NCBI RefSeq assembly: GCF_016026235.1
Contig: NZ_CP065613.1
Reading direction: 5' to 3' (one strand)
Source of the DNA: Escherichia coli
Lineage (GTDB): Bacteria > Pseudomonadota > Gammaproteobacteria > Enterobacterales > Enterobacteriaceae
Length of the DNA stretch: 64,000 nucleotides
Of the stretch, positions 35,467 to 52,633 are shown piece by piece; position 1 is the stretch's first letter, and each line of letters begins with the position of its first letter. A model generated the notes under the pieces. That model was given only the letters and a program-made list of their open reading frames with translations, was not told where the DNA came from and did not search any database. Made by a program: the position numbers and the translations under genes.

Positions 35467-35723
35467 CAGCGCAGCACCTCCTGCACCAGTTTTTCAAACT
35501 TTCCGACTCTGGTTTCCAGCTCTGCCACACAGTCCACCAGCTCATCTACTGCTTTCTGTGCGCGATGCTTCGCCTGCATCAGTTCCCGAAGCGCGGGTAC
35601 CATATCTTTACGGATAGCATCTTTTGTTATGCCCGTTTTTTCGAGTTGTTCAGCATGACGCAGCATTTCCTGCGCGTGTTTACGCAATTGTTCAGGGGTA
35701 AAAGTCATTGTCTGGTTGTTCAA
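35466..35723 (-). CDS. hypothetical coiled-coil protein
   Basis: 85 aa between helicase and rusA. Confidence 0.5.
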   Translation of the reverse strand: MNNQTMTFTPEQLRKHAQEMLRHAEQLEKTGITKDAIRKDMVPALRELMQAKHRAQKAVDELVDCVAELETRVGKFEKLVQEVLR

Positions 35724-36753
35724 AAGAAACGCTCCATCTTACTGCTGTCAGTTCGTTTATTACTGTATCTGCGCGGATTGCCGGGCTTCATGGGAGTGGA
35801 AAGCACCCGTGCACTTTCCTGGTCCACAGGCAGAAAATGTCCGTTATAAAAACGCCGGTAAATCGTTCCCAGAGAACCGTTACGTTGTTTCGTGATATTG
35901 ATTTCTGCGATGCCCCTGGCCTGCGTATCCGGGTTGTACACTTCATCCCTGTAAAGCATCAGAATGATGTCTGCATCCGCCTCTATTTCTCCGGAATTTT
36001 TCAGGTCTGAGTTCATGGGACGTTTATTGGGTCTGGACTCCACACCGCGGGAGAGCTGGCTCAGCGCAATCAACGGAAAACCACCGGATTTTGCCAGGCC
36101 TTTAAGCCCCTTTGAGATTTCACCCACGGCAAGGTCATGACGCCCCGTGGTTCGGGTTTTTATCAGCCCGAGATAATCAACCACCACCAGCGCCGTTTCC
36201 GGATGTTTAATCAGATGGTGTTTCGTTGTTGCGCATATCTCATCAATGGTCAGGTTCGCCTGGTCCACCATCCAGATATTGCGCCCGGTCATCCGCCCCA
36301 CCCCTTGTGAGAAACGCGCCCAGTCTTCATCTTCAAAGTGAGCCACAGATTTCAGGCGTGATACTGGCATCCCTCCAGCCGCAGACACCATACGTTCACC
36401 AATCTGGATGTTCGCCATCTCCATGGTGAACAGAAGCACACCATGCCCCTGCTCAGTCACCTTGTCGATGATGTCCAGCGCAAGTTCGGTTTTCCCCATC
36501 GAAGGACGAGCCGCAATAAATACCAGGTCGCCGGGCTCCATGCCGCCTGTTTTTGCGTCCAGTTCATCAATACCGGTCATCAACGTCCTGGATTTCTCCA
36601 GTCCCTGATTCCGGCATTCAACACGCTCAACCACCTCCGGAAGCACATCATCAATATGTACCGACTGAATAACGCCCTTTTCCGTCGACAATGAGGCCAT
36701 CATGTTCTGTGCATCCTTAAGAGCATCTTCAGCTGCTTCACAGGTATGCGCAT
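35720..36753 (-). pseudogene. DnaB-like replicative helicase, C-terminal part (split by IS600)
   Basis: Walker A AARPSMGKTELAL; first 16 residues of ORF come from the IS600 end. Confidence 0.8.
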
Positions 36754-36817
36754 TGAGGTAGCCTGAGTTTAACGGACACTCCTTCCTGAAATAGAATGGC
36801 ATCAGAAGGAGCTAATA

Positions 36818-37120
36818 ATGAGCAGAAAAAACCAACGTTACTCTAAAGAGTTCAAAGCCGAAGCTGTCAGAACGGTTCTTGAAAATCAACTTTCGATCAG
36901 TGAAGGCGCTTCCCGATTATCCCTTCCTGAAGGCACTTTAGGACAATGGGTTACCGCCGCCAGAAAAGGGCTCGGTACTCCTGGTTCCCGCACGGTGGCT
37001 GAACTGGAATCTGAAATTCTGCAACTGCGTAAGGCGTTAAATGAAGCTCGCCTTGAGCGAGATATATTAAAAAAAGCAACAGCGTATTTTGCACAGGAGT
37101 CGCTGAAAAATACGCGTTAA
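36818..37120 (+). CDS. IS600 OrfA
   Basis: 100 aa HTH protein MSRKNQRYSKEFKAEAV. Confidence 0.9.
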   Translation: MSRKNQRYSKEFKAEAVRTVLENQLSISEGASRLSLPEGTLGQWVTAARKGLGTPGSRTVAELESEILQLRKALNEARLERDILKKATAYFAQESLKNTR

Positions 37121-37155
37121 TCGAACAATGGCGACAACAATTTCCCATTGAAGCG

Positions 37156-37974
37156 ATGTGTCAGGTATTTGGTGTATCCAGGAGCGGTTATTACAACTGG
37201 GTACAGCATGAACCCTCAGACAGAAAACAAAGTGATGAGCGGCTAAAACTGGAGATTAAGGTGGCACATATCCGCACTCGCGAAACATATGGAACCCGGC
37301 GGCTCCAGACGGAGCTGGCAGAGAATGGCATCATCGTTGGTCGTGACCGACTGGCACGTCTTCGTAAGGAGCTAAGGCTACGCTGTAAGCAGAAACGCAA
37401 GTTCAGAGCGACTACGAACCCGAACCACAATCTGCCAGTTGCGCCAAATCTGCTGAACCAGACGTTCGCTCCTACAGCACCAAATCAGGTCTGGGTGGCG
37501 GACCTGACGTATGTTGCCACACAGGAGGGATGGTTGTACCTCGCTGGCATCAAAGATGTTTATACGTGCGAAATTGTCGGCTACGCCATGGGAGAGCGCA
37601 TGACAAAAGAGCTGACAGGTAAAGCCCTGTTTATGGCGCTCAGGAGCCAGCGCCCACCTGCCGGGCTAATCCACCACTCTGATCGAGGTTCACAGTACTG
37701 CGCATACGATTACCGGGTCATACAGGAGCAGTCTGGTCTGAAAACATCAATGTCGCGTAAAGGTAACTGTTACGACAACGCTCCGATGGAAAGCTTCTGG
37801 GGAACGCTGAAAAATGAGAGCCTGAGCCACTATCGTTTTAATAACCGGGATGAAGCCATCTCAGTAATACGGGAATACATTGAGATTTTCTACAATCGTC
37901 AGCGTCGTCACTCTCGTCTGGGGAATATCTCCCCGGCAGCCTTCAGGGAAAAATATCATCAGATGGCTGCTTAA
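37156..37974 (+). CDS. IS600 OrfB (DDE transposase; made as OrfAB by -1 frameshift)
   Basis: 272-aa ORF; A-run AAAAAAAG near orfA 3' end. Confidence 0.9.
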   Translation: MCQVFGVSRSGYYNWVQHEPSDRKQSDERLKLEIKVAHIRTRETYGTRRLQTELAENGIIVGRDRLARLRKELRLRCKQKRKFRATTNPNHNLPVAPNLLNQTFAPTAPNQVWVADLTYVATQEGWLYLAGIKDVYTCEIVGYAMGERMTKELTGKALFMALRSQRPPAGLIHHSDRGSQYCAYDYRVIQEQSGLKTSMSRKGNCYDNAPMESFWGTLKNESLSHYRFNNRDEAISVIREYIEIFYNRQRRHSRLGNISPAAFREKYHQMAA

Positions 37975-38017
37975 AAAAAGAACAAATGGTAGTGTCCGCT
38001 ATTGCCAGTACACCTCA

Positions 38018-38378
38018 CATCGCGTAATTTCTGTAATGCCTCGTTCAGTGTTTTTTCTGCATCGCGCAGTGCGGCATTGCGCCGCAACGCTGCAACATAG
38101 TGCTCCAGTGAAGACTTCACCCAGGTTTTACGCCCGGTATCAGTAATCACCGGGGCAAGTTCTGGCATCTCATTGCACAACAGCACAGGATCAATCACGC
38201 CGGACACACGGGCCTGTCTGCAGATGCCTGTGTAGATATCCCGGTACGGTCGTACAGAAAAAACGTCCGCCGGTAGTGTGGCCAGAATATCCATCACTTC
38301 AGGATCTGCTCCGCGCAGAAAGAACGCGCCGATGACAGCGCCTTCAAGGTCATCGTTACGCCATACTGGAGTTGTCAT
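38018..38378 (-). pseudogene. DnaB-like helicase, N-terminal part
   Basis: ORF 37971..38378 minus IS-derived tail. Confidence 0.7.
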
Positions 38379-41306: not shown

Positions 41307-41594
41307 ATGCCATCCAGACTGTATAAACAGTTCATCCGTCATCTCGGTGAATCTGAATACATACGAATCCGCATATGGGAAGTGGAGCCTGCTGTATTGG
41401 GTAGCCAGCACAACTACAAATACAGCATGGCTTATGTCGTTGATGGCATGTGTGTGATGCGTTACGACAACGAACGGGGTAAAGGCGATCACAAACACAT
41501 TGGTAGTCAGGAAGTCAGCACCAGCTTTGTCACCATTGAACAACTGCTCGCTGATTTTCTGGCTGACGTTGAATCCATCCGCAGAGGTATCTGA
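41307..41594 (+). CDS. hypothetical protein, first gene of TA-like pair
   Basis: 95 aa; RBS GAGGAAG; stop 1 nt before next ATG. Confidence 0.6.
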   Translation: MPSRLYKQFIRHLGESEYIRIRIWEVEPAVLGSQHNYKYSMAYVVDGMCVMRYDNERGKGDHKHIGSQEVSTSFVTIEQLLADFLADVESIRRGI

Positions 41595-41595
41595 C

Positions 41596-41955
41596 ATGAG
41601 AACCGTAACAATCCGAATCGAGTCAATGGATAATTTCACGGCTGATGTGCTGTCTGCGTTCCAGGAAGCAGCTACCGGAGCAAAAGCAACCAGAGAAAAC
41701 GTTATTTCATTTCCTGACTGGCAAATGATGCATAAGGTACTGACACCAAAACGCATGGACATTCTGATGGCAATGACTGGTGCCGGAGAAATGTCCATCC
41801 GAAAAATTGCAGCCCTGGTTGGACGTGATGTAAAAAGCGTGCATACTGACGTGACCGCACTCATCAGCAACGGTTTACTGGAAAAAAGCGAGCGCGGAAC
41901 GTCATTCCCGTATGACGACATCCACTTTGATTTTACGCTGGGCAAGGCGGCGTAA
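41596..41955 (+). CDS. winged-helix DNA-binding protein, second gene of pair
   Basis: 120 aa; HTH-like MSIRKIAALVGRDVKSVHTDVTALISNGLL. Confidence 0.6.
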   Translation: MRTVTIRIESMDNFTADVLSAFQEAATGAKATRENVISFPDWQMMHKVLTPKRMDILMAMTGAGEMSIRKIAALVGRDVKSVHTDVTALISNGLLEKSERGTSFPYDDIHFDFTLGKAA

Positions 41956-42172: not shown

Positions 42173-42886
42173 TCACACCTTCCAGCCAGTAGCCTGAAAC
42201 AGGCCCATTCTCGGGTGATACCAGCGGGTACCACGCTGAACGGCACCACACATCATGTGATGAAACGCCTTCAGAAACGGTTCCACAGCAACAATTTCAC
42301 GACGTGCCAGTAATCCATCTGGCGTCAAAAATTCATGAGTGTCTGTCGGGATGTTGTATGCATTTACAAGCGTGCGACATTTCGCATCTGACATACCGGT
42401 TTTTGCTTTCAGCTGGCGATATCCGGCATAGCCCTCTCGAATGGTACCCTTTTTGATTTGCTCAACTGTTTCGGCTACGTGGCTGATTTTTTCTTCCACC
42501 TGAGTGATCCGTTTCTGCTGACGAACAGCCTCGAGCGCCATTGCGGCCACCATTTCGATTTCGCTCATTGGTTTGCGGATCTGTTCTTCCAGTTCGCGCC
42601 AGCGATCTACCAGGCGAGCAGTGAATTCAGGACAGAGCTGTGCGACGACAATGATGCTGTCGCGCTTACCTTGTTCTCCTTCAAACAGGTAATGCTCATA
42701 TTGAACTTTAAAACCTAAGTTATTGATTCTTTCGGAAACCTCAATTTGAGGAGACCGGACAACGCCACCTTTGGCTAATGTTTCAATAGTGCGTTTCACA
42801 TTGTCATGACGCTTACCCACCAGTTCTGCGATCTCAACGCTGGTCATGGATGCTTTGTCGTTAAAAATTGCGGTGTTCACTGCCAT
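42173..42886 (-). CDS. phage antirepressor/Rha-like regulatory protein
   Basis: 237 aa from MAVNTAIFNDKASMTSVEIAELVGKRHDNVKR; GGAG RBS. Confidence 0.65.
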   Translation of the reverse strand: MAVNTAIFNDKASMTSVEIAELVGKRHDNVKRTIETLAKGGVVRSPQIEVSERINNLGFKVQYEHYLFEGEQGKRDSIIVVAQLCPEFTARLVDRWRELEEQIRKPMSEIEMVAAMALEAVRQQKRITQVEEKISHVAETVEQIKKGTIREGYAGYRQLKAKTGMSDAKCRTLVNAYNIPTDTHEFLTPDGLLARREIVAVEPFLKAFHHMMCGAVQRGTRWYHPRMGLFQATGWKV

Positions 42887-42999
42887 CTCCTTACGGATAA
42901 ATTCTTTTAAGATTCCGCACATTCGTACTTGTTGGTGCCGAACCTTCCTTCAGTTATCCTTTTGATCCCTATAAACAAAAGAACCAAAGGAGGTTCGAC

Positions 43000-43293
43000 A
43001 TGAAAGTTCAGGCCGTTGGTTTATTCTGGTTTCGCGATGCGATTCAGTATCATGAGCTCAAAAATATTTTTACTGATGCTGATGTGCTCTCCGACAGTTA
43101 CACCGAGTGGAAACACGACGCTGAAAAATTGATTAAGCGTGTCGAAAGAAGCGGGCAACGAGTTATTAAAGTTGAAGCGGATACAGCCGAGTTCATCACC
43201 TGGTGTACAAGCGAAGGCATTGGACTCAATGCCGAAGGTAGAATGCAGTTCGCATCCTTTAAGGCTTACCAACAACTTCTCAGCGAACGCTAA
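43000..43293 (+). CDS. hypothetical protein
   Basis: 97 aa; strong AAAGGAGGT RBS; competes with antisense ORF 43021..43374. Confidence 0.45.
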   Translation: MKVQAVGLFWFRDAIQYHELKNIFTDADVLSDSYTEWKHDAEKLIKRVERSGQRVIKVEADTAEFITWCTSEGIGLNAEGRMQFASFKAYQQLLSER

Positions 43294-43363
43294 TGTGATT
43301 GGGGCAATCGAAATTGTTGCCCCATCGTATTTAATAGTTATTTTTTCGCTCATATCACCACCA

Positions 43364-43573
43364 TCACTTCTCATCCTCTGTGTGCGCTAAGCTTGGATGT
43401 GTATATGGAATGTTCGGATCCAGATGGCAGAGAATGGCAACATCCTCCGGAACGCCCCGCGTTTTCCACTTTCCAACTCCCTGACTACCACGAGGCTTTC
43501 CTTTCTTTGGGAACCTGCGGCCAATAGCGGCATTGGTTTTAAATTGAGTTTTTAATATTTCATAAAGGGTCAT
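43364..43573 (-). CDS. Cro-like early regulator
   Basis: 69 aa, divergent from cI. Confidence 0.55.
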   Translation of the reverse strand: MTLYEILKTQFKTNAAIGRRFPKKGKPRGSQGVGKWKTRGVPEDVAILCHLDPNIPYTHPSLAHTEDEK

Positions 43574-43684
43574 TCTTTAGCCTCACACCGGATACTCTGT
43601 TATCCAAGAATGTTAAACATGAGAATCCAAAGTATCAAGATATTCTGTTACTTTAGTATCAGCAGCCATGAAAGGAGAAGAAAA
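43574..43684. promoter_or_regulatory. divergent cro/cI promoter-operator region
   Basis: 111-bp intergenic with repeated GTATCA and CTGTTA motifs. Confidence 0.5.
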
Positions 43685-44341
43685 ATGAAATCTTTAGGTG
43701 AACGGCTAATCAACGCACGACAAAAAGCTGGGTTAACGCAAGATGCGTTGGCTAAAAAAGCAGGGGTCACCAGAGTTGCAATCAGTAAAGCCGAGCAAGG
43801 CCTTACAAAAAGTTTCAACGGTGACACCCTTTTTAAAGTCGCAGCTGCACTGCAGTGTTCACCGCAGTGGCTTCAGAACGGAGATGAGAAAGGTAAGCAT
43901 TGGGAAAATAATGTTAAGAGTTGCCCCCAGAGGGACACAGCACACTCTTACCCTGTAATTAACTGGGTTCAGGCAGGATTATTCACAACTGCAGGTGATG
44001 ACTACAACATGTATGATCAGGATAACTGGAGGCATTCTGTAAAATACGCTGGTGAGAGGGGGTTCTGGCTGGAAGTGCACGGAGACTCAATGACTTCGCC
44101 TATAGGAATAACATTTCCTGAAGGAATGTCGATCCTTGTCAACCCAGATAAAGAAGTTTTTTCAGGGTGTTACGTCATTGCCAGAAAAAAATCCACCAAT
44201 GAAGCAACATTCAAAAAATATATTTCTGAAATGGGAAAGGCGTTTCTAAAGCCCCTTAATCCACAATACCCAATCATAGAAATGGACAATGATTGCGAAA
44301 TAGTAGGCGTTGTGGTTGATGCCAGATGGGATATTTTCTGA
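43685..44341 (+). CDS. CI-like repressor (HTH plus S24 LexA-like peptidase domain)
   Basis: 218 aa; AGLTQDALAKKAGVTRVAISKAEQG HTH; HGDSM and K of catalytic dyad. Confidence 0.9.
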   Translation: MKSLGERLINARQKAGLTQDALAKKAGVTRVAISKAEQGLTKSFNGDTLFKVAAALQCSPQWLQNGDEKGKHWENNVKSCPQRDTAHSYPVINWVQAGLFTTAGDDYNMYDQDNWRHSVKYAGERGFWLEVHGDSMTSPIGITFPEGMSILVNPDKEVFSGCYVIARKKSTNEATFKKYISEMGKAFLKPLNPQYPIIEMDNDCEIVGVVVDARWDIF

Positions 44342-44443
44342 CCAGATACAAAATACAAAAAGAAACCTAAGTATCAAAAACACTTGCAACACCTTGATAC
44401 CTTAGTTACCATAAAACAAAGTTCGTAACTGAGGTATCATCTC

Positions 44444-44893
44444 ATGATCAATAAAGCTACAACTCTTGACTGTCTCGAAGAACTGAAAAACCTCGGCAGC
44501 CTCATTACACTAATAGCAAAAGCAACGGCAGATGCTACGCTCTCTAGCGATATAGAGTCATGCGCAGGACTGGCATGGGATATGACAAATAGCATATCCA
44601 GAAAGCTATCGTCAGCAATGCTTTTACAGAACAAAAATTCTGCAATCAACAACCGCCTTCGCACCCAACGCGAAGCCTGCGGCTTAACAACAGCCGAACT
44701 CGCCAGGCTGCTCGATCTCGATGAAGAAATTATCATCCAGTGGGAGAGCGGAGAGTATGAACCAACTATCAGTATGCTTATCCCACTGGCAAATATTCTT
44801 GGCTGCGATCCGATGTGGCTGTTAACTGGTGAGGTTACTCCTCCGGAGCAACCAAAAAGTGAGGAGCAGCAACACCATGACGCATCTCAATAA
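44444..44893 (+). CDS. HTH (XRE-type) protein with unknown N-terminal domain
   Basis: 149 aa; C-terminal CGLTTAELARLLDLDEEIIIQWESGEYEP; GTATCA motifs upstream. Confidence 0.65.
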   Translation: MINKATTLDCLEELKNLGSLITLIAKATADATLSSDIESCAGLAWDMTNSISRKLSSAMLLQNKNSAINNRLRTQREACGLTTAELARLLDLDEEIIIQWESGEYEPTISMLIPLANILGCDPMWLLTGEVTPPEQPKSEEQQHHDASQ

Positions 44894-45075
44894 GTTTGCC
44901 CCTTATCTCGCGAAGCTCTTCTACGGAAGAACCAATACCAATGGTGACATAATCGCCGCTTCGCCCCTCAAGGTACATGCGAACATTTTTATCAATCATT
45001 GCGGAAACAGTCTCAATATGAAAACACTTCTGAGACTCGCTATATAGCAGAACATATAAGTCAGCTGAGGAAGCC

Positions 45076-45288
45076 ATGAAAAAGTTCGAAAACATAACTG
45101 TTCTCCATGTTGATGACTTTGATTATACAAACCCGGAACTTCTCCCGGAGGTTGTAAAGGCAATAGATGTTGCCGATATAGTGATTAGAGGAAAGAGAAT
45201 TGTCAAAAACAGGCTCGCATGTACTTCAGGAGCAATGACAGAAACAACCTCACAGCAAGATGATTGGAGCCTGATTCATTTGCGGTAA
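45076..45288 (+). CDS. hypothetical small protein
   Basis: 70 aa with GAGGAAG RBS; competing antisense ORF 44835..45095 also has GGAG. Confidence 0.35.
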   Translation: MKKFENITVLHVDDFDYTNPELLPEVVKAIDVADIVIRGKRIVKNRLACTSGAMTETTSQQDDWSLIHLR

Positions 45289-45417
45289 ATGTTTATCATT
45301 TATTGCATGCAACACAGGTGTTACATACGTCCAGTAATAACGAAACAAAAACACTTGGCAGTGAAATTCTGAATTTTGCATGTGAATATGCAAAAACCGC
45401 TGTTGAAAAAGAATTAG

Positions 45418-45462
45418 CGCAATAACAACAAATATGCCCTGAACGTTTATTGCGGTTTTATC
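45418..45462 (+). terminator. hairpin CGCAATAA/TTATTGCG followed by GTTTTATC
   Basis: 8-bp stem, 21-nt loop, T-rich tail. Confidence 0.35.
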
Positions 45463-45503
45463 GCCGGGGATTGTTACAACCTTAATCCACAGGAGGCTTT
45501 ATT

Positions 45504-45617
45504 ATGACTTTTATAAAGAATATGGCATCACACAAGACCGCCAGCCTTATTGCACAATACGGTGAAAATTACATGCATATTGCCTGCTTATTTCTGCGTA
45601 AAGCATACGGGAAATAA
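45504..45617 (+). CDS. 37-aa small ORF
   Basis: Strong CAGGAGG RBS; stop 3 nt before next ATG. Confidence 0.35.
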   Translation: MTFIKNMASHKTASLIAQYGENYMHIACLFLRKAYGK

Positions 45618-45620
45618 CAA

Positions 45621-45980
45621 ATGACACATGAACCCATTAATACATATCGTCGCCGTATAGCTGTTGCGGCACTCCATCGAATAAAACGTAAAACAGGTAG
45701 TGATCTGCTTATTGTTGACCTTCTGGATGGGAACATTACGACCATAGAAATAACAGAACAGTTTATAAACCAGTTGCTGTTGCGCTTTGAAGGTATTACC
45801 CGTGGTGAATTGGGTCGAGTGGAGGGTGAAACAGAAATCCGAACTGCATACCAGAATGCTATCGGGATTAATCAACATACTGAATACCAGGCTGAAACCG
45901 GAAAGTTAATTATAGACAACCTTTTACAAGAGGTTATTGATTACGCGAAAGAAAAATATATCAGCGGAGGAATTAACTGA
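45621..45980 (+). CDS. hypothetical protein
   Basis: 119 aa; TGATG overlap with next gene. Confidence 0.55.
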   Translation: MTHEPINTYRRRIAVAALHRIKRKTGSDLLIVDLLDGNITTIEITEQFINQLLLRFEGITRGELGRVEGETEIRTAYQNAIGINQHTEYQAETGKLIIDNLLQEVIDYAKEKYISGGIN

Positions 45981-46195
45981 TGGCTAATTTATCCCCTGTA
46001 TCTGTTGTGCACGAAAAAGTGCAGATCGTTATGACAATTGAAAATGGCCAGGTAACAGATGTCTGCAAAGTCCGCGATGGAGAGCTGATTGCCAGCATGG
46101 ATACATTCATACGGCTGGCAGAAAGAGCGGGGTATCAGATAACAGCACCTGCTCAGGAGGAAACCAGTGACATTAACAGCAACACGAATTCCTGA
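45980..46195 (+). CDS. hypothetical protein
   Basis: 71 aa, translationally coupled. Confidence 0.5.
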   Translation: MANLSPVSVVHEKVQIVMTIENGQVTDVCKVRDGELIASMDTFIRLAERAGYQITAPAQEETSDINSNTNS

Positions 46196-46385
46196 GTGGG
46201 TCCACCAGCAGGCGTTGCTGGTCCTGCGGCGGTACAGATGCCGACGTATATTCCCGCATCGGATACAGCGCAACGGATATCTCAGTCTGAAGGTTAACCG
46301 TCGCTGGCGGCTGTTATCGAAAGACGACGGCCGGAACTGGGAAGTAATGAGTCATGAACGTTATTCGGGGGAAATAAAGAAATGA
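46167..46385 (+). CDS. hypothetical basic protein, GTG start
   Basis: AGGAGG RBS before GTG; C-terminus RNWEVMSHERY loosely recalls HigB/RelE toxin tails. Confidence 0.5.
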   Translation: MTLTATRIPEWVHQQALLVLRRYRCRRIFPHRIQRNGYLSLKVNRRWRLLSKDDGRNWEVMSHERYSGEIKK

Positions 46386-46532
46386 TCGACAACCGCACCG
46401 CCAGCGCCATTGACCAGGCATTACAGAAACATGATACACCCGTCGGCCCGTTATTTTTTGTAACACGCCACGAAAGAACAAAAAATGCCTCACCCGAAAA
46501 ACGGCAATTCGTTACCTGGCATTCTTTATGAC
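46383..46532 (+). CDS. hypothetical small protein
   Basis: 49 aa, ATGA overlaps on both sides. Confidence 0.4.
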
Positions 46533-46773
46533 CACCCGCGCTTTTGAACGTTCAGGATTCCGACAACGCCATCCTGACAAGCGTTTTATCTTCAACGGGA
46601 ATGAGATATGGAAACGTGGAGAATCAACCACAGAGTATACCCGCGCACACCAGCGAACAATCAGACGACTGCGCAGACTCATCGCCAGGAAACAGTATAC
46701 AGAAAAATGGTTCAGAAAATATGACACATGGAGCGCCGGATATTACGAACTGATGGCAACAAAACCATTCTGA
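46528..46773 (+). CDS. hypothetical basic protein
   Basis: 81 aa, ATGA-coupled. Confidence 0.45.
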   Translation: MTTRAFERSGFRQRHPDKRFIFNGNEIWKRGESTTEYTRAHQRTIRRLRRLIARKQYTEKWFRKYDTWSAGYYELMATKPF

Positions 46774-46833
46774 CGTAAACGAAATTAACCATGACGCAAT
46801 TAAATAAGGCAAGCCGAATACATCAGGAGGACC

Positions 46834-47022
46834 ATGAACATTTATTTCAGAATAGTTATATCACTGGCAATTATCGCATGTATTTACGGATTAATCGTTC
46901 CGGCCCTCATATCAATGAAGGATACGGTAGCAGTGATTTCTGGCTTTGCTCTGGCGTGTCTGACCCCGCCCTGCATTTATGCCATTTATAAGGGTCTTTC
47001 TTTCCCCAGGAGGGAAAAATGA
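46834..47022 (+). CDS. small membrane protein (two predicted TM segments)
   Basis: 62 aa; CAGGAGG RBS; stop overlaps SPFH ATG. Confidence 0.55.
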   Translation: MNIYFRIVISLAIIACIYGLIVPALISMKDTVAVISGFALACLTPPCIYAIYKGLSFPRREK

Positions 47023-47828
47023 AAAAAACAATTGCGCTTGTTTTCGCGGTCAGTCTGGCTGTCTTCGGACTTGTAGGTTGCGATCGCGTTGAACCAGGTA
47101 ATGTGGGTATCAAAGTCAACAAACTGGGCGACGACAAAGGTGTCGGTGAAGTGGTCGGTGTTGGTCGCTACTGGACTGGCTGGAATACTGAAGTTTACAT
47201 TTTCCCGACCTTCAAGCAAATGAAGACCTACGATGAACCGTTCAGTTTCCAGATGAGTGACGGCACAACCATCGGCTATCACATCGGCGTGGCCTACAAA
47301 GTTGATCCATCCAAAGTTACCACGGTGTTTCAGACTTACCGCAAAGGCGTGGATGACATTACCAACACCGACCTGCGCCAGAAGATCGCCGACGCACTCA
47401 ATCGGCTGGCCAGCAAAATGACCACCGACAAATTTATTGACGGCGGCAAGTCTGAACTACTGGATGCCGCACTTAAAGACATTCAGGAAGAGATGACACC
47501 CATCGGCATTCAGGTAATGAGCCTCTCTTATGTAGGTAAACCGGAATACCCTCCAACCGTTATCGACAGCATTAACGCCAAAGTCACGGCAAACCAGAAA
47601 ACCCTGCAGCGCGAACAGGAAGTCAAGCAACGTGAAGCGGAGGCCAACATGCTACGTGCGGAAGCTGCCGGACAGGCTGATGCCATTCGAACAAAAGCCC
47701 AGGCAGAAGCCGATGCCATTCGTTTACGCGGCGAAGCTCTACGCCAGAACCCAGGCGTCATGGAGCTGGAAGCCATCAACAAGTGGAACGGTACACTGCC
47801 GCAATACATGACCAGTGGTGTGAGGTAG
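47019..47828 (+). CDS. SPFH/band-7 family lipoprotein, last codons replaced by IS600
   Basis: Lipobox LVGC; SPFH core; Ala/Glu/Arg-rich coiled coil; final residues VR encoded by IS600 left end. Confidence 0.8.
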   Translation: MKKTIALVFAVSLAVFGLVGCDRVEPGNVGIKVNKLGDDKGVGEVVGVGRYWTGWNTEVYIFPTFKQMKTYDEPFSFQMSDGTTIGYHIGVAYKVDPSKVTTVFQTYRKGVDDITNTDLRQKIADALNRLASKMTTDKFIDGGKSELLDAALKDIQEEMTPIGIQVMSLSYVGKPEYPPTVIDSINAKVTANQKTLQREQEVKQREAEANMLRAEAAGQADAIRTKAQAEADAIRLRGEALRQNPGVMELEAINKWNGTLPQYMTSGVR

Positions 47829-47884
47829 CCTGAGTTTAACGGACACTCCTTCCTGAAATAGAATGGCATCAGAAGGAGCTAATA

Positions 47885-48187
47885 ATGAGCAGAAAAACCC
47901 AACGTTACTCTAAAGAGTTCAAAGCCGAAGCTGTCAGAACGGTTCTTGAAAATCAACTTTCGATCAGTGAAGGCGCTTCCCGATTATCTCTTCCTGAAGG
48001 CACTTTAGGACAATGGGTTACCGCCGCCAGAAAAGGGCTCGGTACTCCTGGTTCCCGCACGGTGGCTGAACTGGAATCTGAAATTCTGCAACTGCGTAAG
48101 GCGTTAAATGAAGCTCGCCTTGAGCGAGATATATTAAAAAAAGCAACAGCGTATTTTGCACAGGAGTCGCTGAAAAATACGCGTTAA
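47885..48187 (+). CDS. IS600 OrfA
   Basis: Near-identical to copy 1. Confidence 0.9.
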   Translation: MSRKTQRYSKEFKAEAVRTVLENQLSISEGASRLSLPEGTLGQWVTAARKGLGTPGSRTVAELESEILQLRKALNEARLERDILKKATAYFAQESLKNTR

Positions 48188-48222
48188 TCGAACAATGGCG
48201 ACAACAATTTCCCATTGAAGCG

Positions 48223-49041
48223 ATGTGTCAGGTATTTGGTGTATCCAGGAGCGGTTATTACAACTGGGTACAGCATGAACCCTCAGACAGAAAACAAAGT
48301 GATGAGCGGCTAAAACTGGAGATTAAGGTGGCACATATCCGCACTCGCGAAACATATGGAACCCGGCGGCTCCAGACGGAGCTGGCAGAGAATGGCATCA
48401 TCGTTGGTCGTGACCGACTGGCACGTCTTCGTAAGGAGCTAAGGCTACGCTGTAAGCAGAAACGCAAGTTCAGAGCGACTACGAACCCGAACCACAATCT
48501 GCCAGTTGCGCCAAATCTGCTGAACCAGACGTTCGCTCCTACAGCACCAAATCAGGTCTGGGTGGCGGACCTGACGTATGTTGCCACACAGGAGGGATGG
48601 TTGTACCTCGCTGGCATCAAAGATGTTTATACGTGCGAAATTGTCGGCTACGCCATGGGAGAGCGCATGACAAAAGAGCTGACAGGTAAAGCCCTGTTTA
48701 TGGCGCTCAGGAGCCAGCGCCCACCTGCCGGGCTAATCCACCACTCTGATCGAGGTTCACAGTACTGCGCATACGATTACCGGGTCATACAGGAGCAGTC
48801 TGGTCTGAAAACATCAATGTCGCGTAAAGGTAACTGTTACGACAACGCTCCGATGGAAAGCTTCTGGGGAACGCTGAAAAATGAGAGCCTGAGCCACTAT
48901 CGTTTTAATAACCGGGATGAAGCCATCTCAGTAATACGGGAATACATTGAGATTTTCTACAATCGTCAGCGTCGTCACTCTCGTCTGGGGAATATCTCCC
49001 CGGCAGCCTTCAGGGAAAAATATCATCAGATGGCTGCTTAA
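48223..49041 (+). CDS. IS600 OrfB
   Basis: Identical to copy 1. Confidence 0.9.
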   Translation: MCQVFGVSRSGYYNWVQHEPSDRKQSDERLKLEIKVAHIRTRETYGTRRLQTELAENGIIVGRDRLARLRKELRLRCKQKRKFRATTNPNHNLPVAPNLLNQTFAPTAPNQVWVADLTYVATQEGWLYLAGIKDVYTCEIVGYAMGERMTKELTGKALFMALRSQRPPAGLIHHSDRGSQYCAYDYRVIQEQSGLKTSMSRKGNCYDNAPMESFWGTLKNESLSHYRFNNRDEAISVIREYIEIFYNRQRRHSRLGNISPAAFREKYHQMAA

Positions 49042-49150
49042 AAAAAGAACAAATGGTAGTGTCCGCTATTGCCAGTACACCTCAGTGCCAATACACCATT
49101 TATCCAGATTAAATAACTTATATGCCCGGCAGGCCGCCGGGCTAAGGGAA

Positions 49151-50252: not shown

Positions 50253-51425
50253 ATGGATAAAGTCAAATATCCAACAGGCGTCGAAAACCACGGTGGCACA
50301 TTACGCATCTGGTTTAATTTTAAAGGTAAACGTGTCAGGGAAAATCTTGGTGTCCCTGACACTGCCAAGAACAGGAAGATCGCCGGAGAGCTGCGGACAT
50401 CTGTATGTTTTGCCATTCGTACAGGAAATTTTGATTATGCTGCGCAGTTCCCTGACTCTCCTAACCTCAAGGCTTTTGGGGTAAATAAAAAAGAAATTAC
50501 GGTGAAAGAACTTGAAGAAAAATGGCTGGATCTGAAACGAATGGAAATCTCTGCAAATGCATTCAATCGCTATGAATCCATTGCAAGGATGATGGTTCCG
50601 AAGATTGGTGGCAACCGACTGGTATCAGCAGTGACCAAAGAGGAATTGCTGTATATCAGGAAAGATTTGCTGACCGGATACCAAAATCCAACAAAAGGTA
50701 AAGCTCCAGTAAAAGGACGAAGCGTTGTCACAGTAAATTATTACATGACAACAATCGCTGGAATGTTTCAGTTTGCTGCAGATCACGGTTACATAGAAGC
50801 AAATCCCTTCGAGGGAATTAAGCCTCTTAAAAGAGCCAGGGCAGAACCAGATCCGCTAACTCGTGACGAATTTATTCGCCTGATAGATGCTTGCCGGCAT
50901 CAGCAGACAAAAAACCTGTGGTCATTGGCTGTGTACACAGGAATGCGTCATGGTGAACTGGTCTCCCTGGCCTGGGAAGATATCGATCTGAAAGCAGGAA
51001 CAATTACTATCAGGCGCAATTATACGAAACTCGGTGAGTTCACTCTACCTAAAACTGAAGCAAGTACAAACAGGGTTGTGCATCTTATCCAGCCCGCTAT
51101 CAGTGTCCTGAAAAATCAGGCTGAAATGACAAGACTGGGTAAGCAGCACAACATCAAGGTTCAACTACGTGAATATGGACGTTCAGTAAATCATGAATGT
51201 ACTTTCGTATTTAACCCCCAGGTGGTTAGAAAAAGCAAACAGGTAGGTTTTATCTACAAGGTAGATTCCATTGGCGACTCATGGGAAACAGCCATTAAAC
51301 GTGCAGGCATCAGGCATCGAAAGGCATACCAGTCACGACACACTTATGCGTGCTGGTCATTATCTGCCGGAGCAAATCCAAGCTTCATTGCCAGCCAGAT
51401 GGGGCATGCAAGTGAGGTAGCCTGA
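50253..51425 (+). pseudogene. int: tyrosine integrase, 3' end interrupted by IS600
   Basis: GGAGG RBS; catalytic region through HTYACWSLSAGANPSFIASQMGH then IS600 from 51413. Confidence 0.85.
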
Positions 51426-51476
51426 GTTTAACGGACACTCCTTCCTGAAATAGAATGGCATCAGAAGGAGCTAATA

Positions 51477-51779
51477 ATGAGCAGAAAAACCCAACGTTAC
51501 TCTAAAGAGTTCAAAGCCGAAGCTGTCAGAACGGTTCTTGAAAATCAACTTTCGATCAGTGAAGGCGCTTCCCGATTATCCCTTCCTGAAGGCACTTTAG
51601 GACAATGGGTTACCGCCGCCAGAAAAGGGCTCGGTACTCCTGGCTCCCGCACGGTGGCTGAACTGGAATCTGAAATTCTGCAACTGCGTAAGGCGTTAAA
51701 TGAAGCTCGCCTTGAGCGAGATATATTAAAAAAAGCAACAGCGTATTTTGCACAGGAGTCGCTGAAAAATACGCGTTAA
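51477..51779 (+). CDS. IS600 OrfA
   Basis: As copy 2. Confidence 0.9.
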   Translation: MSRKTQRYSKEFKAEAVRTVLENQLSISEGASRLSLPEGTLGQWVTAARKGLGTPGSRTVAELESEILQLRKALNEARLERDILKKATAYFAQESLKNTR

Positions 51780-51814
51780 TCGAACAATGGCGACAACAAT
51801 TTCCCATTGAAGCG

Positions 51815-52633
51815 ATGTGTCAGGTATTTGGTGTATCCAGGAGCGGTTATTACAACTGGGTACAGCATGAACCCTCAGACAGAAAACAAAGTGATGAGCG
51901 GCTAAAACTGGAGATTAAGGTGGCACATATCCGCACTCGCGAAACATATGGAACCCGGCGGCTCCAGACGGAGCTGGCAGAGAATGGCATCATCGTTGGT
52001 CGTGACCGACTGGCACGTCTTCGTAAGGAGCTAAGGCTACGCTGTAAGCAGAAACGCAAGTTCAGAGCGACTACGAACCCGAACCACAATCTGCCAGTTG
52101 CGCCAAATCTGCTGAACCAGACGTTCGCTCCTACAGCACCAAATCAGGTCTGGGTGGCGGACCTGACGTATGTTGCCACACAGGAGGGATGGTTGTACCT
52201 CGCTGGCATCAAAGATGTTTATACGTGCGAAATTGTCGGCTACGCCATGGGAGAGCGCATGACAAAAGAGCTGACAGGTAAAGCCCTGTTTATGGCGCTC
52301 AGGAGCCAGCGCCCACCTGCCGGGCTAATCCACCACTCTGATCGAGGTTCACAGTACTGCGCATACGATTACCGGGTCATACAGGAGCAGTTTGGTCTGA
52401 AAACATCAATGTCGCGTAAAGGTAACTGTTACGACAACGCTCCGATGGAAAGCTTCTGGGGAACGCTGAAAAATGAGAGCCTGAGCCACTATCGTTTTAA
52501 TAACCGGGATGAAGCCATCTCAGTAATACGGGAATACATTGAGATTTTCTACAATCGTCAGCGTCGTCACTCTCGTCTGGGGAATATCTCCCCGGCAGCC
52601 TTCAGGGAAAAATATCATCAGATGGCTGCTTAA
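51815..52633 (+). CDS. IS600 OrfB
   Basis: One substitution (F for S) versus other copies. Confidence 0.9.
   Translation: MCQVFGVSRSGYYNWVQHEPSDRKQSDERLKLEIKVAHIRTRETYGTRRLQTELAENGIIVGRDRLARLRKELRLRCKQKRKFRATTNPNHNLPVAPNLLNQTFAPTAPNQVWVADLTYVATQEGWLYLAGIKDVYTCEIVGYAMGERMTKELTGKALFMALRSQRPPAGLIHHSDRGSQYCAYDYRVIQEQFGLKTSMSRKGNCYDNAPMESFWGTLKNESLSHYRFNNRDEAISVIREYIEIFYNRQRRHSRLGNISPAAFREKYHQMAA

What the first reader, a model, noticed from the sequence alone, without database searches (positions are those of the whole stretch)
44342..45288. Second HTH protein immediately downstream of cI under repeated GTATCA motifs, with an ambiguous overlapping small gene
The motif (A/G)GTATCA occurs twice in the cro-cI intergenic region and three times in the 100 bp after cI, including an inverted pair GTATCAA-N17-TTGATAC and a copy overlapping the RBS of the 149-aa HTH gene at 44444. 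This suggests that gene shares an operator with cI, in the position lambda uses for rexAB. Downstream, a 70-aa plus-strand ORF and an 86-aa minus-strand ORF overlap antisense; both have RBS-like sequences and I cannot decide which is real.
Basis: partly seen in the sequence, partly recalled or inferred. Interest (0 to 1): 0.55.

Follow-up and report, generated by a model that had tools for sequence, protein, structure and literature searches.

The report
Left operator, early gene, hidden antisense gene
The repeated GTATCA motifs are the repressor's left-hand operator set over an early promoter, so the helix-turn-helix gene sits where lambda has N (not rexAB), and both small overlapping ORFs are real genes, one of them broken here by a 16-bp deletion.

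Summary
The window carries a phiP27-like lambdoid prophage, apparently degraded by IS insertions. GTATCA is the conserved half of a 14-bp pseudo-palindrome (GWWWC-N4-GTATC). It occurs three times between cro and cI and three times just after cI.

The sites after cI overlap a promoter, TTGCAA-17-TACCAT (TTGCCA in most relatives). Sister phages with other cI alleles have their own palindromes in both gaps. Two of them have a terminator after cI followed by a near-consensus promoter.

So the gap after cI is OL/PL. The HTH gene is the first gene of the CI-repressed early-left operon, the slot of lambda N, not of rexAB. I predict it is silent in the lysogen.

Its protein has an N-terminal helical hairpin that varies one-to-one with the cI type. 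Then comes a nearly invariant, unusually acidic repressor-like HTH domain and a disordered tail. Its target is unknown.

The 70-aa ORF is the 5' part of a 121-aa gene (phiP27 L08) cut by a 16-bp deletion. The 86-aa minus-strand ORF is a real, selected gene (dN/dS 0.08-0.22). It belongs to an uncharacterised family and lies convergent to the first PL gene, where lambda has sieB. Overall this is an ordinary architecture with two uncharacterised occupants.

The parts
43364..43573 (-). cro-like gene (69 aa), first gene of the rightward early operon
   Evidence: ORF. It matches phrog_4749 over its full length. PGAP annotates the homologue in the closest E. coli genome. It runs divergently from cI.
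43590..43603 (.). OR-side operator, GATACTCTGTTATC (right half TTATC instead of GTATC)
   Evidence: Read directly. In the 83%-identical relative L003 the same position is GACACTTAAGTATC. The half-sites are nearly invariant across 43 sequence variants.
43623..43636 (.). OR-side operator GAATCCAAAGTATC, overlapping the -35 box of PR
   Evidence: The PR-like promoter on the minus strand is TTGATA (43638..43633) -17- TAACAT (43615..43610).
43647..43660 (.). OR-side operator GTTACTTTAGTATC, nearest to cI
   Evidence: Conserved among relatives.
43685..44341 (+). cI repressor (218 aa: HTH plus S24/LexA-type peptidase domain)
   Evidence: phrog_4 'transcriptional repressor', E = 4e-52. NCBIfam LexA/UmuD-type C-terminal domain. 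PGAP calls it 'LexA family protein'. dN/dS is 0.05 against L003.
44362..44375 (.). OL-side operator GAAACCTAAGTATC, upstream of the PL -35 box
   Evidence: inverted repeat I4. The half-sites are invariant in relatives and variation falls in the N4 spacer.
44384..44412 (+). PL candidate promoter: TTGCAA (44384-44389), 17 bp, TACCAT (44407-44412)
   Evidence: Read; it scores 8/12 here, below the scanner's threshold. In the common relative L054 the scanner reports TTGCCA-17-TACCAT (9/12) at the homologous place. The -10 box is invariant in 43 variants. Function is inferred.
44396..44409 (.). OL-side operator GATACCTTAGTTAC, over the spacer and -10 box of PL
   Evidence: I2, I4.
44425..44438 (.). 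OL-side operator GTAACTGAGGTATC, just downstream of the predicted start site. On the DNA it overlaps the Shine-Dalgarno sequence of the HTH gene.
   Evidence: Together with 44396-44409 it forms a 14-15-bp inverted repeat (I2).
44395..44439 (+). RNA hairpin (-20 kcal/mol). It exists only in transcripts that read through from cI, and it buries the SD GAGG at 44431-44434.
   Evidence: z = -5.6 here and -7.0 in L003. A transcript starting at about 44419 is unstructured (z = +1.1). The functional role is inferred.
44444..44893 (+). HTH gene (149 aa), first gene of the early-left operon. Residues 1-~66 form a helical hairpin linked to the immunity type. Residues ~70-129 form an acidic HTH domain. 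Residues 130-149 form a disordered tail.
   Evidence: Pfam HTH_3. phrog_4739, E = 5e-90. The mosaic junctions lie at about 44656 and about 44832. AF2 model. Best fold match is the P22 C2 DNA-binding domain. Net charge of the HTH domain is -6. The stop at 44891 is a CAA-to-TAA change relative to the 167-aa majority form, which would end at 44947.
44835..45095 (-). Real 86-aa gene on the opposite strand, convergent with the HTH gene. This is the sieB-like slot. RBS GGAG lies 7 nt before the ATG at 45095.
   Evidence: The ORF is intact in all 34 near variants. It is 86 aa in L063 at 70% nucleotide identity. Homologues at 58-85% identity occur in E. coli, Salmonella and Citrobacter (99% in E. albertii). 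dN/dS is 0.08-0.22, while the other frames carry stops or give at least 1. phrog_6104. The same arrangement is found in Salmonella.
45076..45288 (+). 5' part of a 121-aa gene (phiP27 L08, phrog_5451), truncated here to 70 aa by a frameshift
   Evidence: It matches positions 1-68 of the 121-position phrog_5451 profile. 33 of 35 aligned variants read through to 121 aa. dN/dS is 0.36-0.46 between intact homologues.
45264..45265 (+). Site of the 16-bp deletion (TATGAAGGCATTTGTC in relatives) that breaks the L08 gene
   Evidence: Alignment. The deletion is shared only with the L037 group. The closest E. coli genome has the same 213-nt CDS.
45289..45425 (+). Out-of-frame 3' remainder of the L08 gene
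   Evidence: Restoring the 16 bp joins 45076..45425 into 366 nt, which is 121 codons plus stop. phiP27 L08 is also 366 nt.
44877..45047 (+). 56-aa plus-strand ORF that is NOT a gene
   Evidence: The start codon is lost in L037 and L039 and there is an internal stop in L071. No PHROG match. dN/dS is at least 1 in the plus frames without stops.

Best explanation
This is the left half of a classical lambdoid immunity region in which two slots hold uncharacterised genes.

(1) CI binds 14-bp pseudo-palindromic operators (about GWWWC-N4-GTATC), three in the cro-cI gap (OR) and three in the 102 bp after cI (OL). The OL sites bracket and overlap an early-left promoter, PL (TTGCAA-17-TACCAT). CI therefore represses PL in the lysogen. 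The HTH gene at 44444 is the first PL gene, in the slot of lambda N, and heads the operon that runs to xis/int.

(2) This immunity type has no terminator after cI. Transcripts reading through from the cI promoter would contain both OL2 and OL3. These fold into a -20 kcal/mol hairpin that hides the ribosome-binding site of the HTH gene. PL transcripts start between the two arms and are free to be translated.

(3) The HTH protein is probably a dimer held by its N-terminal helical hairpin. It is made immediately on derepression or infection and acts as an early regulator. Its target is unknown. Its HTH domain is repressor-like in fold but strongly acidic.

(4) The 86-aa minus-strand gene is a separate cassette inserted between the HTH gene and the L08 gene, convergent with PL. 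By position it is the counterpart of lambda sieB. It is most likely expressed when PL is silent, that is, in the lysogen.

(5) The 70-aa plus-strand ORF is the remnant of the 121-aa L08 gene.

What is shown: the motif anatomy, its conservation, its covariation with cI type, the gene order, the coding status of the ORFs and the mutations. What is inferred: CI binding, promoter use, the hairpin effect, when each gene is expressed and what each protein does.
For: Operators. The 14-mer is essentially confined to the two gaps flanking cI. All six sites persist in the 83%-identical phage L003. Across 43 variants the half-sites and the -10 box are invariant, while the spacers and the region 5' of OL1 vary.

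Covariation. Four other cI types (L067, L074, L071, L084) each show different sequence words, read by eye as palindromes, shared between their own cro-cI and cI-HTH gaps.

Promoter logic. In L067 and L074 an intrinsic terminator follows cI, then TTGACA-17-TATTAT (11/12) or TTGACA-17-TAATAT (10/12), then the HTH gene. In L054 the scanner finds TTGCCA-17-TACCAT at the homologous position.

Gene order. It matches lambda without rexAB: cro, OR, cI, OL/PL, first gene, then a convergent gene. Downstream genes run on the same strand towards xis/int in phiP27, ASU11 and the Stx1 phage. A homologue of the 86-aa protein lies convergent to a true N gene next to cI and cro. Another lies one small gene beyond an S24 repressor gene.

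Hairpin.

Protein.

Small genes.
Against: There is no experimental evidence for CI binding or for transcription start sites. PL in this window matches the consensus at only 8 of 12 positions and was not reported by the scanner. The 14-mer pattern was derived after the fact from the sites it describes.

The lack of a terminator after cI leaves room for some co-transcription of the HTH gene with cI. The OL2/OL3 hairpin could be a by-product of two similar operators lying in inverted orientation.

The recognition helix begins D-E-E and the HTH domain has net charge -6, so ordinary operator binding by this protein is doubtful and its role stays open.

For the 86-aa gene no convincing promoter was found. 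A perfect TATAAT at 45127..45122 lacks a -35 box, lies inside L08 coding sequence and is not conserved in Salmonella. No fold or family match gives a function.
Confidence: 0.75

Rival explanations
1. The HTH gene is a rexAB-like passenger, co-transcribed with cI from the maintenance promoter and expressed in the lysogen (for example for exclusion or immunity). The GTATCA sites would tune that joint transcript.
For: The gene is on the same strand as cI and only 102 bp downstream. No intrinsic terminator was detected between them in this immunity type. The PL candidate is weak in this window, at 8/12.
Against: Three operators plus a promoter lie between cI and the gene. Sister immunity types place a strong terminator and a near-consensus promoter there. 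In lambda, rexAB lies on the cI side of OL and N on the far side. The read-through RNA buries the ribosome-binding site. The gene heads the operon that leads to xis/int. There is no PADLOC match beyond generic HTH models.
Confidence: 0.1
2. The HTH protein is the phage's CII-type establishment activator, or a second Cro-like repressor, that binds DNA through its HTH. This fits the label of phrog_4836 and the ASU11 annotation 'putative CII repressor'.
For: phrog_4836 'CII-like regulator' matches residues 32-138 at E = 1e-40. ASU11 gp50 is annotated 'putative CII repressor'. No cII-like gene follows cro, and none was seen among the ORFs I scanned. The fold is closest to the P22 C2 and 434 repressor DNA-binding domains. 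The Salmonella orthologues have ordinary recognition helices.
Against: There is no match to Pfam Phage_CII, and the PHROG and GenBank names are untested labels. The recognition helix starts D-E-E-I and the domain has net charge -6, against +6 for the DNA-binding domain of this phage's own CI. No conserved palindrome that could serve as its site was found in the co-inherited DNA.
Confidence: 0.3
3. The GTATCA repeats are chance or a composition effect, and the 86-aa minus-strand ORF is a spurious antisense shadow.
For: GTATCA is over-represented across the whole window: 55 copies against 24 expected. Near relatives are too similar for ORF integrity to be informative on its own.
Against: Local density is 5 against about 0.13 expected. 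The 14-mer is specific to these gaps. The sites are conserved while their surroundings vary and they change with the cI type. The minus-strand ORF keeps its length at 70% nucleotide identity. Its dN/dS is 0.08-0.22 while the other frames fail. It has protein homologues in other genera and 383 cluster representatives.
Confidence: 0.02

Closest known systems
Phage lambda left immunity arm: OL1-3/PL, N, sieB (NC_001416)
   Same: There are three operators on each side of cI, and the left set lies over the early-left promoter. The first PL gene is followed at once by a gene on the opposite strand. The operon continues to xis/int.
   Different: There is no rexAB between cI and OL. The first gene encodes an HTH protein, not an arginine-rich N, and I saw no nutL. 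The operators are 14-bp GWWWC-N4-GTATC rather than 17-bp, with centre spacings of 33/24 and 34/29 bp. The convergent gene encodes a soluble 86-aa protein unrelated to the 192-aa SieB.
Stx2e phage phiP27 (AJ298298) genes L12-L08 and the yecE-integrating Stx1a/Stx2a phages
   Same: They share the cro, cI (L11), HTH gene (L10) and L08 at 84-94% nucleotide identity.
   Different: phiP27 L10 is 138 aa with a different tail. Its slot between L10 and L08 holds an unrelated segment of about 580 bp plus a remnant of the 86-aa gene. Its L08 is intact at 121 aa. None of these genes has an assigned function.
P22 C2 / 434 repressor and Cro DNA-binding domains; DicA (NF007257)
   Same: The HTH domain superposes on the P22 C2 DNA-binding domain at 0.8 A over 63 residues with 32% identity. 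The best NCBIfam hit is DicA.
   Different: It scores below the DicA cut-off (48.8 against 101 bits). The HTH is C-terminal, behind a helical hairpin. There is no S24 domain. The surface and recognition helix are acidic.
Antitoxin-style XRE proteins with an N-terminal partner-binding domain and C-terminal HTH (MqsA, HigA2). This is recalled from memory.
   Same: The domain order and the overall acidity are the same. There are weak NCBIfam hits to MqsA- and HipB-type models.
   Different: No toxin gene lies in the operon. All scores are far below the cut-offs. The 86-aa neighbour is convergent and is absent in some relatives.

Membership tests
Lambdoid tripartite operator sets (OR and OL) of a CI-type repressor | The same (pseudo)palindromic site is repeated on both sides of cI | tested here: met
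   Three plus three 14-bp sites. Five of the 6 window-wide hits of the 14-mer fall here.
Lambdoid tripartite operator sets (OR and OL) of a CI-type repressor | The sites overlap the -35/-10 boxes of the divergent and leftward early promoters | tested here: met
   PR (TTGATA-17-TAACAT) overlaps the site at 43623-43636. PL (TTGC[AC]A-17-TACCAT) overlaps the site at 44396-44409. These are consensus matches only.
Lambdoid tripartite operator sets (OR and OL) of a CI-type repressor | The operator sequence changes with the cI allele (immunity specificity) | tested here: met
   The other cI types have different shared palindromes in both of their gaps. The sites are conserved within a type.
Lambdoid tripartite operator sets (OR and OL) of a CI-type repressor | Physical binding by CI (and Cro) | not testable with these tools
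   Needs footprinting, EMSA or ChIP.
rexAB-like lysogen-expressed genes co-transcribed with cI | Located between cI and OL, with no promoter or operator between them and cI | tested here: not met
   The operators and PL lie between cI and the gene.
rexAB-like lysogen-expressed genes co-transcribed with cI | Sequence relationship to RexA/RexB or another known exclusion or defence protein | tested here: not met
   PADLOC gives only generic HTH hits (RmrA, capH, control protein) on the HTH domain.
rexAB-like lysogen-expressed genes co-transcribed with cI | Transcribed and translated in the uninduced lysogen | not testable with these tools
   Needs RNA-seq or proteomics. The read-through hairpin argues against translation.
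N-type antiterminators | Arginine-rich N peptide (Pfam N_peptide/N36) and a nut boxB in the leader | tested here: not met
   Pfam finds only HTH families. The predicted leader is about 25 nt and has no hairpin. For contrast, L088 has N36 plus GCCCTGAAAAAGGGC.
XRE / Cro-C1 HTH domain (PF01381) | Significant match to the domain model and the five-helix fold | tested here: met
   HTH_3 at E = 5e-11. Foldseek probability 1.00 to P22 C2 and 434 Cro.
XRE / Cro-C1 HTH domain (PF01381) | Basic DNA-contacting surface and a polar or basic start to the recognition helix | tested here: not met
   Net charge is -6 and pI is 4.2. Helix 3 starts D-E-E-I. The DNA-binding domain of this phage's own CI is +6.
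Lambda CII family | Match to Phage_CII (PF05269) and position after cro | tested here: not met
   No such Pfam hit. The gene is on the PL side. Only the label of phrog_4836 says 'CII-like'.
SieB superinfection exclusion protein | Homology to SieB | tested here: not met
   The only PHROG hit is phrog_6104, of unknown function. There are no PADLOC, Pfam or NCBIfam hits.
SieB superinfection exclusion protein | Position and orientation: convergent with, and abutting, the first PL gene | tested here: met
   Window layout compared with lambda. Homologues have the same layout in L085-87, L088 and L099.
phiP27 L08 family (phrog_5451) | Full-length 121-aa protein | tested here: not met
   Residues 1-68 match at E = 5e-41, but a 16-bp deletion truncates the product to 70 aa.

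The most novel reading that the evidence does not exclude
The N-slot protein is an immunity-specific component of the switch rather than an ordinary DNA-binding regulator. Its N-terminal hairpin, which pairs one-to-one with the cI allele in 85 loci, would recognise the cognate CI or Cro. Its acidic, repressor-shaped HTH domain would act as a decoy or protein-contact module, giving feed-forward commitment once PL fires. In parallel, the 86-aa convergent gene would stand for a widespread, unnamed family of small proteins (at least 383 clusters at 50% identity). In lambdoid phages this family would occupy the sieB slot and act as a lysogen-expressed exclusion or regulatory factor.
Probability: 0.12. 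Interest if true: 0.65.

Novelty: new variant of a known kind. Interest (0 to 1): 0.35.

Why it matters
Related sequence is present in 370 of 5,426 complete E. coli genomes, and 153 of those carry most of the region. It is also present in Stx1a, Stx2a and Stx2e phages.

Three practical points follow. Knowing that the GTATCA sites are OL/PL gives the operator consensus for this immunity group. The annotation needs correcting: PGAP misses the 86-aa gene and calls the L08 remnant a gene. Two uncharacterised proteins sit at the most regulation-sensitive positions of the early-left operon.

If the N-slot protein proves to be immunity-specific, or the antisense family proves to be an exclusion factor, both would add to how N-less lambdoid phages, including Stx phages, control induction and superinfection. 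As it stands the architecture is conventional.

Tried and rejected
- Plus-strand 56-aa ORF (44877-45047) as the gene filling the gap. Rejected: the start codon is lost or an internal stop appears in relatives, and there is no family match.
- Codon-position counts among near relatives (95-98% identical). There were too few substitutions to decide between the ORFs, so I moved to the divergent homologues L063, L084 and L085.
- Search with the N-terminal 72 residues alone. It returned only fragments of the same protein.
- Rfam scan of 42500-47000 at E up to 1. No hits.
- Binding site for the HTH protein. An inverted-repeat scan of 43300-46300 showed only the CI operators and coding-region repeats.
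- Promoter for the 86-aa gene. TATAAT at 45127..45122 has no -35 box and is not conserved in Salmonella. The terminator-like hairpin at 45149..45132 lies upstream of the gene and inside L08 codons.
- Toxin-antitoxin reading of the HTH gene plus its neighbour. Rejected because the neighbour is convergent and is dispensable in L051, L056 and L057.
- The phiP27 genome paper (PMC127862) is not held. Literature searches found nothing on these genes.
Full report
**Context.** The region matches a prophage found in 370 of 5,426 complete E. coli genomes, with a best identity of 97.8%. It also matches Stx2e phage phiP27 and the yecE-integrating Stx1a/Stx2a phages.

Annotated relatives show the same order: a cro-like gene, a LexA-family cI, an HTH-domain protein, then small genes on the same strand leading to excisionase and integrase. 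In the window the rightward arm carries Rha/Ant-like, O-like, DnaC-like, DnaB-like, RusA and Q-like genes. Among the ORFs I scanned I found no N or CII.

Three copies of a 1,264-bp IS3-family element are present, and one of them splits the DnaB-like gene. The prophage is therefore probably defective.

**Observation.** The hexamer is common throughout the window (55 copies against 24 expected), so the hexamer alone proves little. Its local density does: about 0.13 copies are expected in the 213 bp of the two gaps at the window-wide rate, and 5 are seen.

Two details need correcting. The inverted pair is separated by 16 bp here and by 17 bp in most relatives. The +70-aa and -86-aa ORFs overlap by only 20 nt, at their 5' ends.

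**What the motif is.** Aligning the five copies by eye shows that each GTATC is preceded, four bases upstream, by GWWWC. This gives a 14-bp pseudo-palindrome whose ideal form is GATAC-N4-GTATC.

- GWWWC-N4-GTATC has 6 hits in the window against 0.56 expected, and five of them lie in the two gaps.
- The fully palindromic form GWWAC-N4-GTWWC has 4 hits, all in the two gaps.
- A sixth site, GATACTCTGTTATC at 43590-43603, completes a 3 + 3 arrangement.

The pattern was derived after the fact from these sites, so three independent checks matter more than the hit counts.

1. All six sites persist in the Stx1 phage L003, which is 83% identical in nucleotides. There the sixth site reads GACACTTAAGTATC.
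2. Across 43 distinct sequence variants of this immunity type the half-sites are almost invariant. Variation falls in the N4 spacers and in a variable ACACAAA tract just after the cI stop.
3. Phages that share the downstream genes but carry four other cI/cro pairs show different words, read by eye as palindromes, each shared between its own cro-cI gap and its own cI-HTH gap.

**Promoters.** On the minus strand, TTGATA-17-TAACAT overlaps the operator at 43623-43636 and points at cro. This is PR.

After cI, TTGCAA (44384-44389), 17 bp, TACCAT (44407-44412) is overlapped by the middle operator and flanked by the other two. It matches the consensus at 8 of 12 positions in this window. In most relatives it is TTGCCA-17-TACCAT, and the scanner reports it there. 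The -10 box is invariant.

Two sister immunity types settle the logic. In L067 and L074 the cI gene is followed by a clean intrinsic terminator, then TTGACA-17-TATTAT (11/12) or TTGACA-17-TAATAT (10/12), then the HTH gene.

The lambda record shows the reference order: cro, OR1-3, cI, rexA, rexB, OL3-1, nutL, N, then sieB on the opposite strand abutting N. The window is this order without rexAB. The HTH gene is therefore in the N slot, not in the rexAB slot.

**Read-through.** This immunity type has no detectable terminator after cI. The middle and right OL operators are inverted copies of each other. In RNA they form a 14-15-bp stem of -20 kcal/mol that contains the Shine-Dalgarno GAGG of the HTH gene. 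The z-score against shuffles is -5.6 here and -7.0 in L003.

A transcript starting at the predicted PL start site (about 44419) lacks the 5' arm and is unstructured. I infer that cI read-through transcripts cannot translate the HTH gene, whereas PL transcripts can. That would be the functional equivalent of the terminators in the sister types. This step is inference.

**The HTH protein.** Pfam finds HTH_3 at residues 72-126. phrog_4739 (unknown function) covers the whole protein, and phrog_4836 ('CII-like regulator') covers residues 32-138. The best NCBIfam hit is DicA, well below its cut-off.

BLAST against 83 related loci shows sharp mosaic junctions at about 44656 and about 44832. These divide the protein into three parts.

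- *N-terminal 70-92 residues.* This part exists in five unrelated-looking versions that pair one-to-one with five cI types in 85 loci.
- *HTH core* (RTQREACGL...MWLLTG). It is almost invariant.
- *Tail.* It depends on what lies downstream. Forms of 138, 149 and 167 aa exist, and so do forms of 216-237 aa with a second HTH.

The window's 149-aa form results from a CAA-to-TAA change at 44891 relative to the 167-aa majority.

The one-to-one link with cI is real, but it is also expected from adjacency alone, because no homology lies between them for recombination to act on. The N-domain is under purifying selection (dN/dS 0.20). Between the window and L003 it diverges faster than CI does: 76% against 93% amino-acid identity.

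The AlphaFold model (pLDDT 79) gives a two-helix hairpin (residues 4-27 and 31-78) running into the HTH, and a disordered tail. Foldseek matches only the HTH part, best to the P22 C2 DNA-binding domain at 0.8 A and 32% identity.

The HTH domain has net charge -6 (pI 4.2), and its recognition helix begins D-E-E-I. The DNA-binding domain of this phage's own CI is +6. The Salmonella orthologues have ordinary recognition helices.

I therefore call the protein an early, CI-repressed, probably dimeric regulator. I leave open whether it binds DNA.

**The small ORFs.** *Plus strand.* phrog_5451 is 121 positions long and the 70-aa ORF matches positions 1-68. In 33 of 35 aligned variants a 16-bp segment, TATGAAGGCATTTGTC, follows position 45264. 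With it the frame runs on to 45425, giving 121 aa, the length of phiP27 L08. The window and its closest relatives carry the deletion, and PGAP annotates the 213-nt stump. Intact homologues keep their length at 57% and 33% identity, with dN/dS 0.36-0.46.

*Minus strand.* The 86-aa ORF is intact in all 34 near variants. It is exactly 86 aa in L063, where the DNA is only 70% identical. It has homologues of 82-88 aa at 58-85% identity in E. coli, Salmonella and Citrobacter (99% in E. albertii), with an invariant core and a variable tail.

Its dN/dS is 0.13-0.22 over the whole gene. It is 0.08-0.14 in the part that overlaps no other gene. Every other frame of that segment has stops or gives dN/dS of at least 1. 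The GGAG 7 nt before the ATG is conserved as far as Salmonella.

The plus-strand 56-aa ORF in the same gap is not conserved.

They diverge from overlapping starts, and the minus-strand gene converges on the HTH gene. The disordered tail of the HTH protein is simply read-through into the antisense strand of that cassette.

**The cassette and its family.** The segment from 44832 to about 45075 behaves as an insert.

- In L051, L056 and L057 the HTH stop overlaps the L08 start and no minus-strand gene is present.
- phiP27 and L041-L050 carry a different, longer segment (517-580 bp, depending on how it is delimited) plus a remnant of the 86-aa gene.
- L021 lacks both the cassette and L08.

A profile search finds 383 representatives at 50% clustering. 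They are mostly 60-100 aa and share the motif VLLWSxxQxxFHIET...DYIxL. None matches a Pfam family.

The model is beta-beta-alpha-beta-alpha (pLDDT 78) and has no significant structural neighbour.

Three of the informative contexts repeat the placement.

- In Salmonella the gene lies between an HTH gene and an L08 homologue.
- In L088 it is convergent to a true N gene. That gene follows what I read as a lambda-type boxB and P22-like operators, next to an S24 cI and cro.
- In L099 it lies one small gene beyond an S24 repressor gene.

The other members, on short metagenomic contigs, are uninformative. By position this is the sieB slot. By sequence the protein is unrelated to SieB.

**Verdict.** The architecture is a standard lambdoid OL/PL. 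What is not standard is the occupant of the N slot and the unnamed family in the sieB slot. Neither has a demonstrated function.

Noticed in passing
window 36754-38017, 47820-49084, 51412-52676: There are three 99.8-100% identical copies of a 1,264-bp IS3-family element; from memory it resembles IS600. One copy splits the DnaB-like helicase gene (halves at 37971-38378 and 35720-36802). The prophage is therefore probably defective, which fits the nonsense and frameshift changes in the early-left genes.
   Followed up: partly
window 43000-43324: A plus-strand 97-aa gene (phrog_4753, unknown function) with a clean terminator at 43300-43324 lies antisense inside the rightward operon, directly after cro. 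It mirrors the 86-aa gene after the first PL gene. It is conserved next to other immunity types (L067, L074).
   Followed up: partly
window 41307-41955 (+): Another opposite-strand pair lies inside the rightward early region. PGAP annotates the homologues in the closest E. coli genome as 'TumE family toxin-antitoxin' and 'HVO_A0114 family DNA-binding protein'.
   Followed up: no
window 44377..44350 (-): A promoter-like site, TTGATA-16-TATTTT (9/12), sits on the minus strand inside the OL region and points back into the 3' end of cI. It could make an antisense cI RNA or it could be chance.
   Followed up: no
window 44346-44360 and relatives: A short ACACAAA-type tract just after the cI stop varies in copy number and length among otherwise very similar relatives.
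   Followed up: no
L003 4071-4721, L063 3001-3669, L084 2362-3075: Some relatives carry a version of the N-slot protein with two tandem HTH domains (216-237 aa). The second domain is also acidic.
   Followed up: partly
window 1-40000, minus strand: GTATCA is about twice as frequent as shuffles predict across the whole window, and it lies mostly on the minus (coding) strand of the late genes. This is probably a codon or oligonucleotide usage effect unrelated to the operators.
   Followed up: no
window 45149..45132 (-), also L067 and L074: A conserved terminator-like hairpin, CCGGGAGAAGTTCCGGG followed by TTTGTATAAT, lies on the minus strand inside the 5' end of the L08 gene, just upstream of the 86-aa gene. 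It contains a perfect TATAAT. Its role as terminator, promoter or neither was not resolved.
   Followed up: partly
L088 1274-2140: A metagenomic lambdoid phage combines, by my reading of the sequence, P22-like operators and a lambda-type boxB (GCCCTGAAAAAGGGC). It also has an N gene (Pfam N36) and a 72-aa homologue of the antisense gene abutting the N stop codon.
   Followed up: partly
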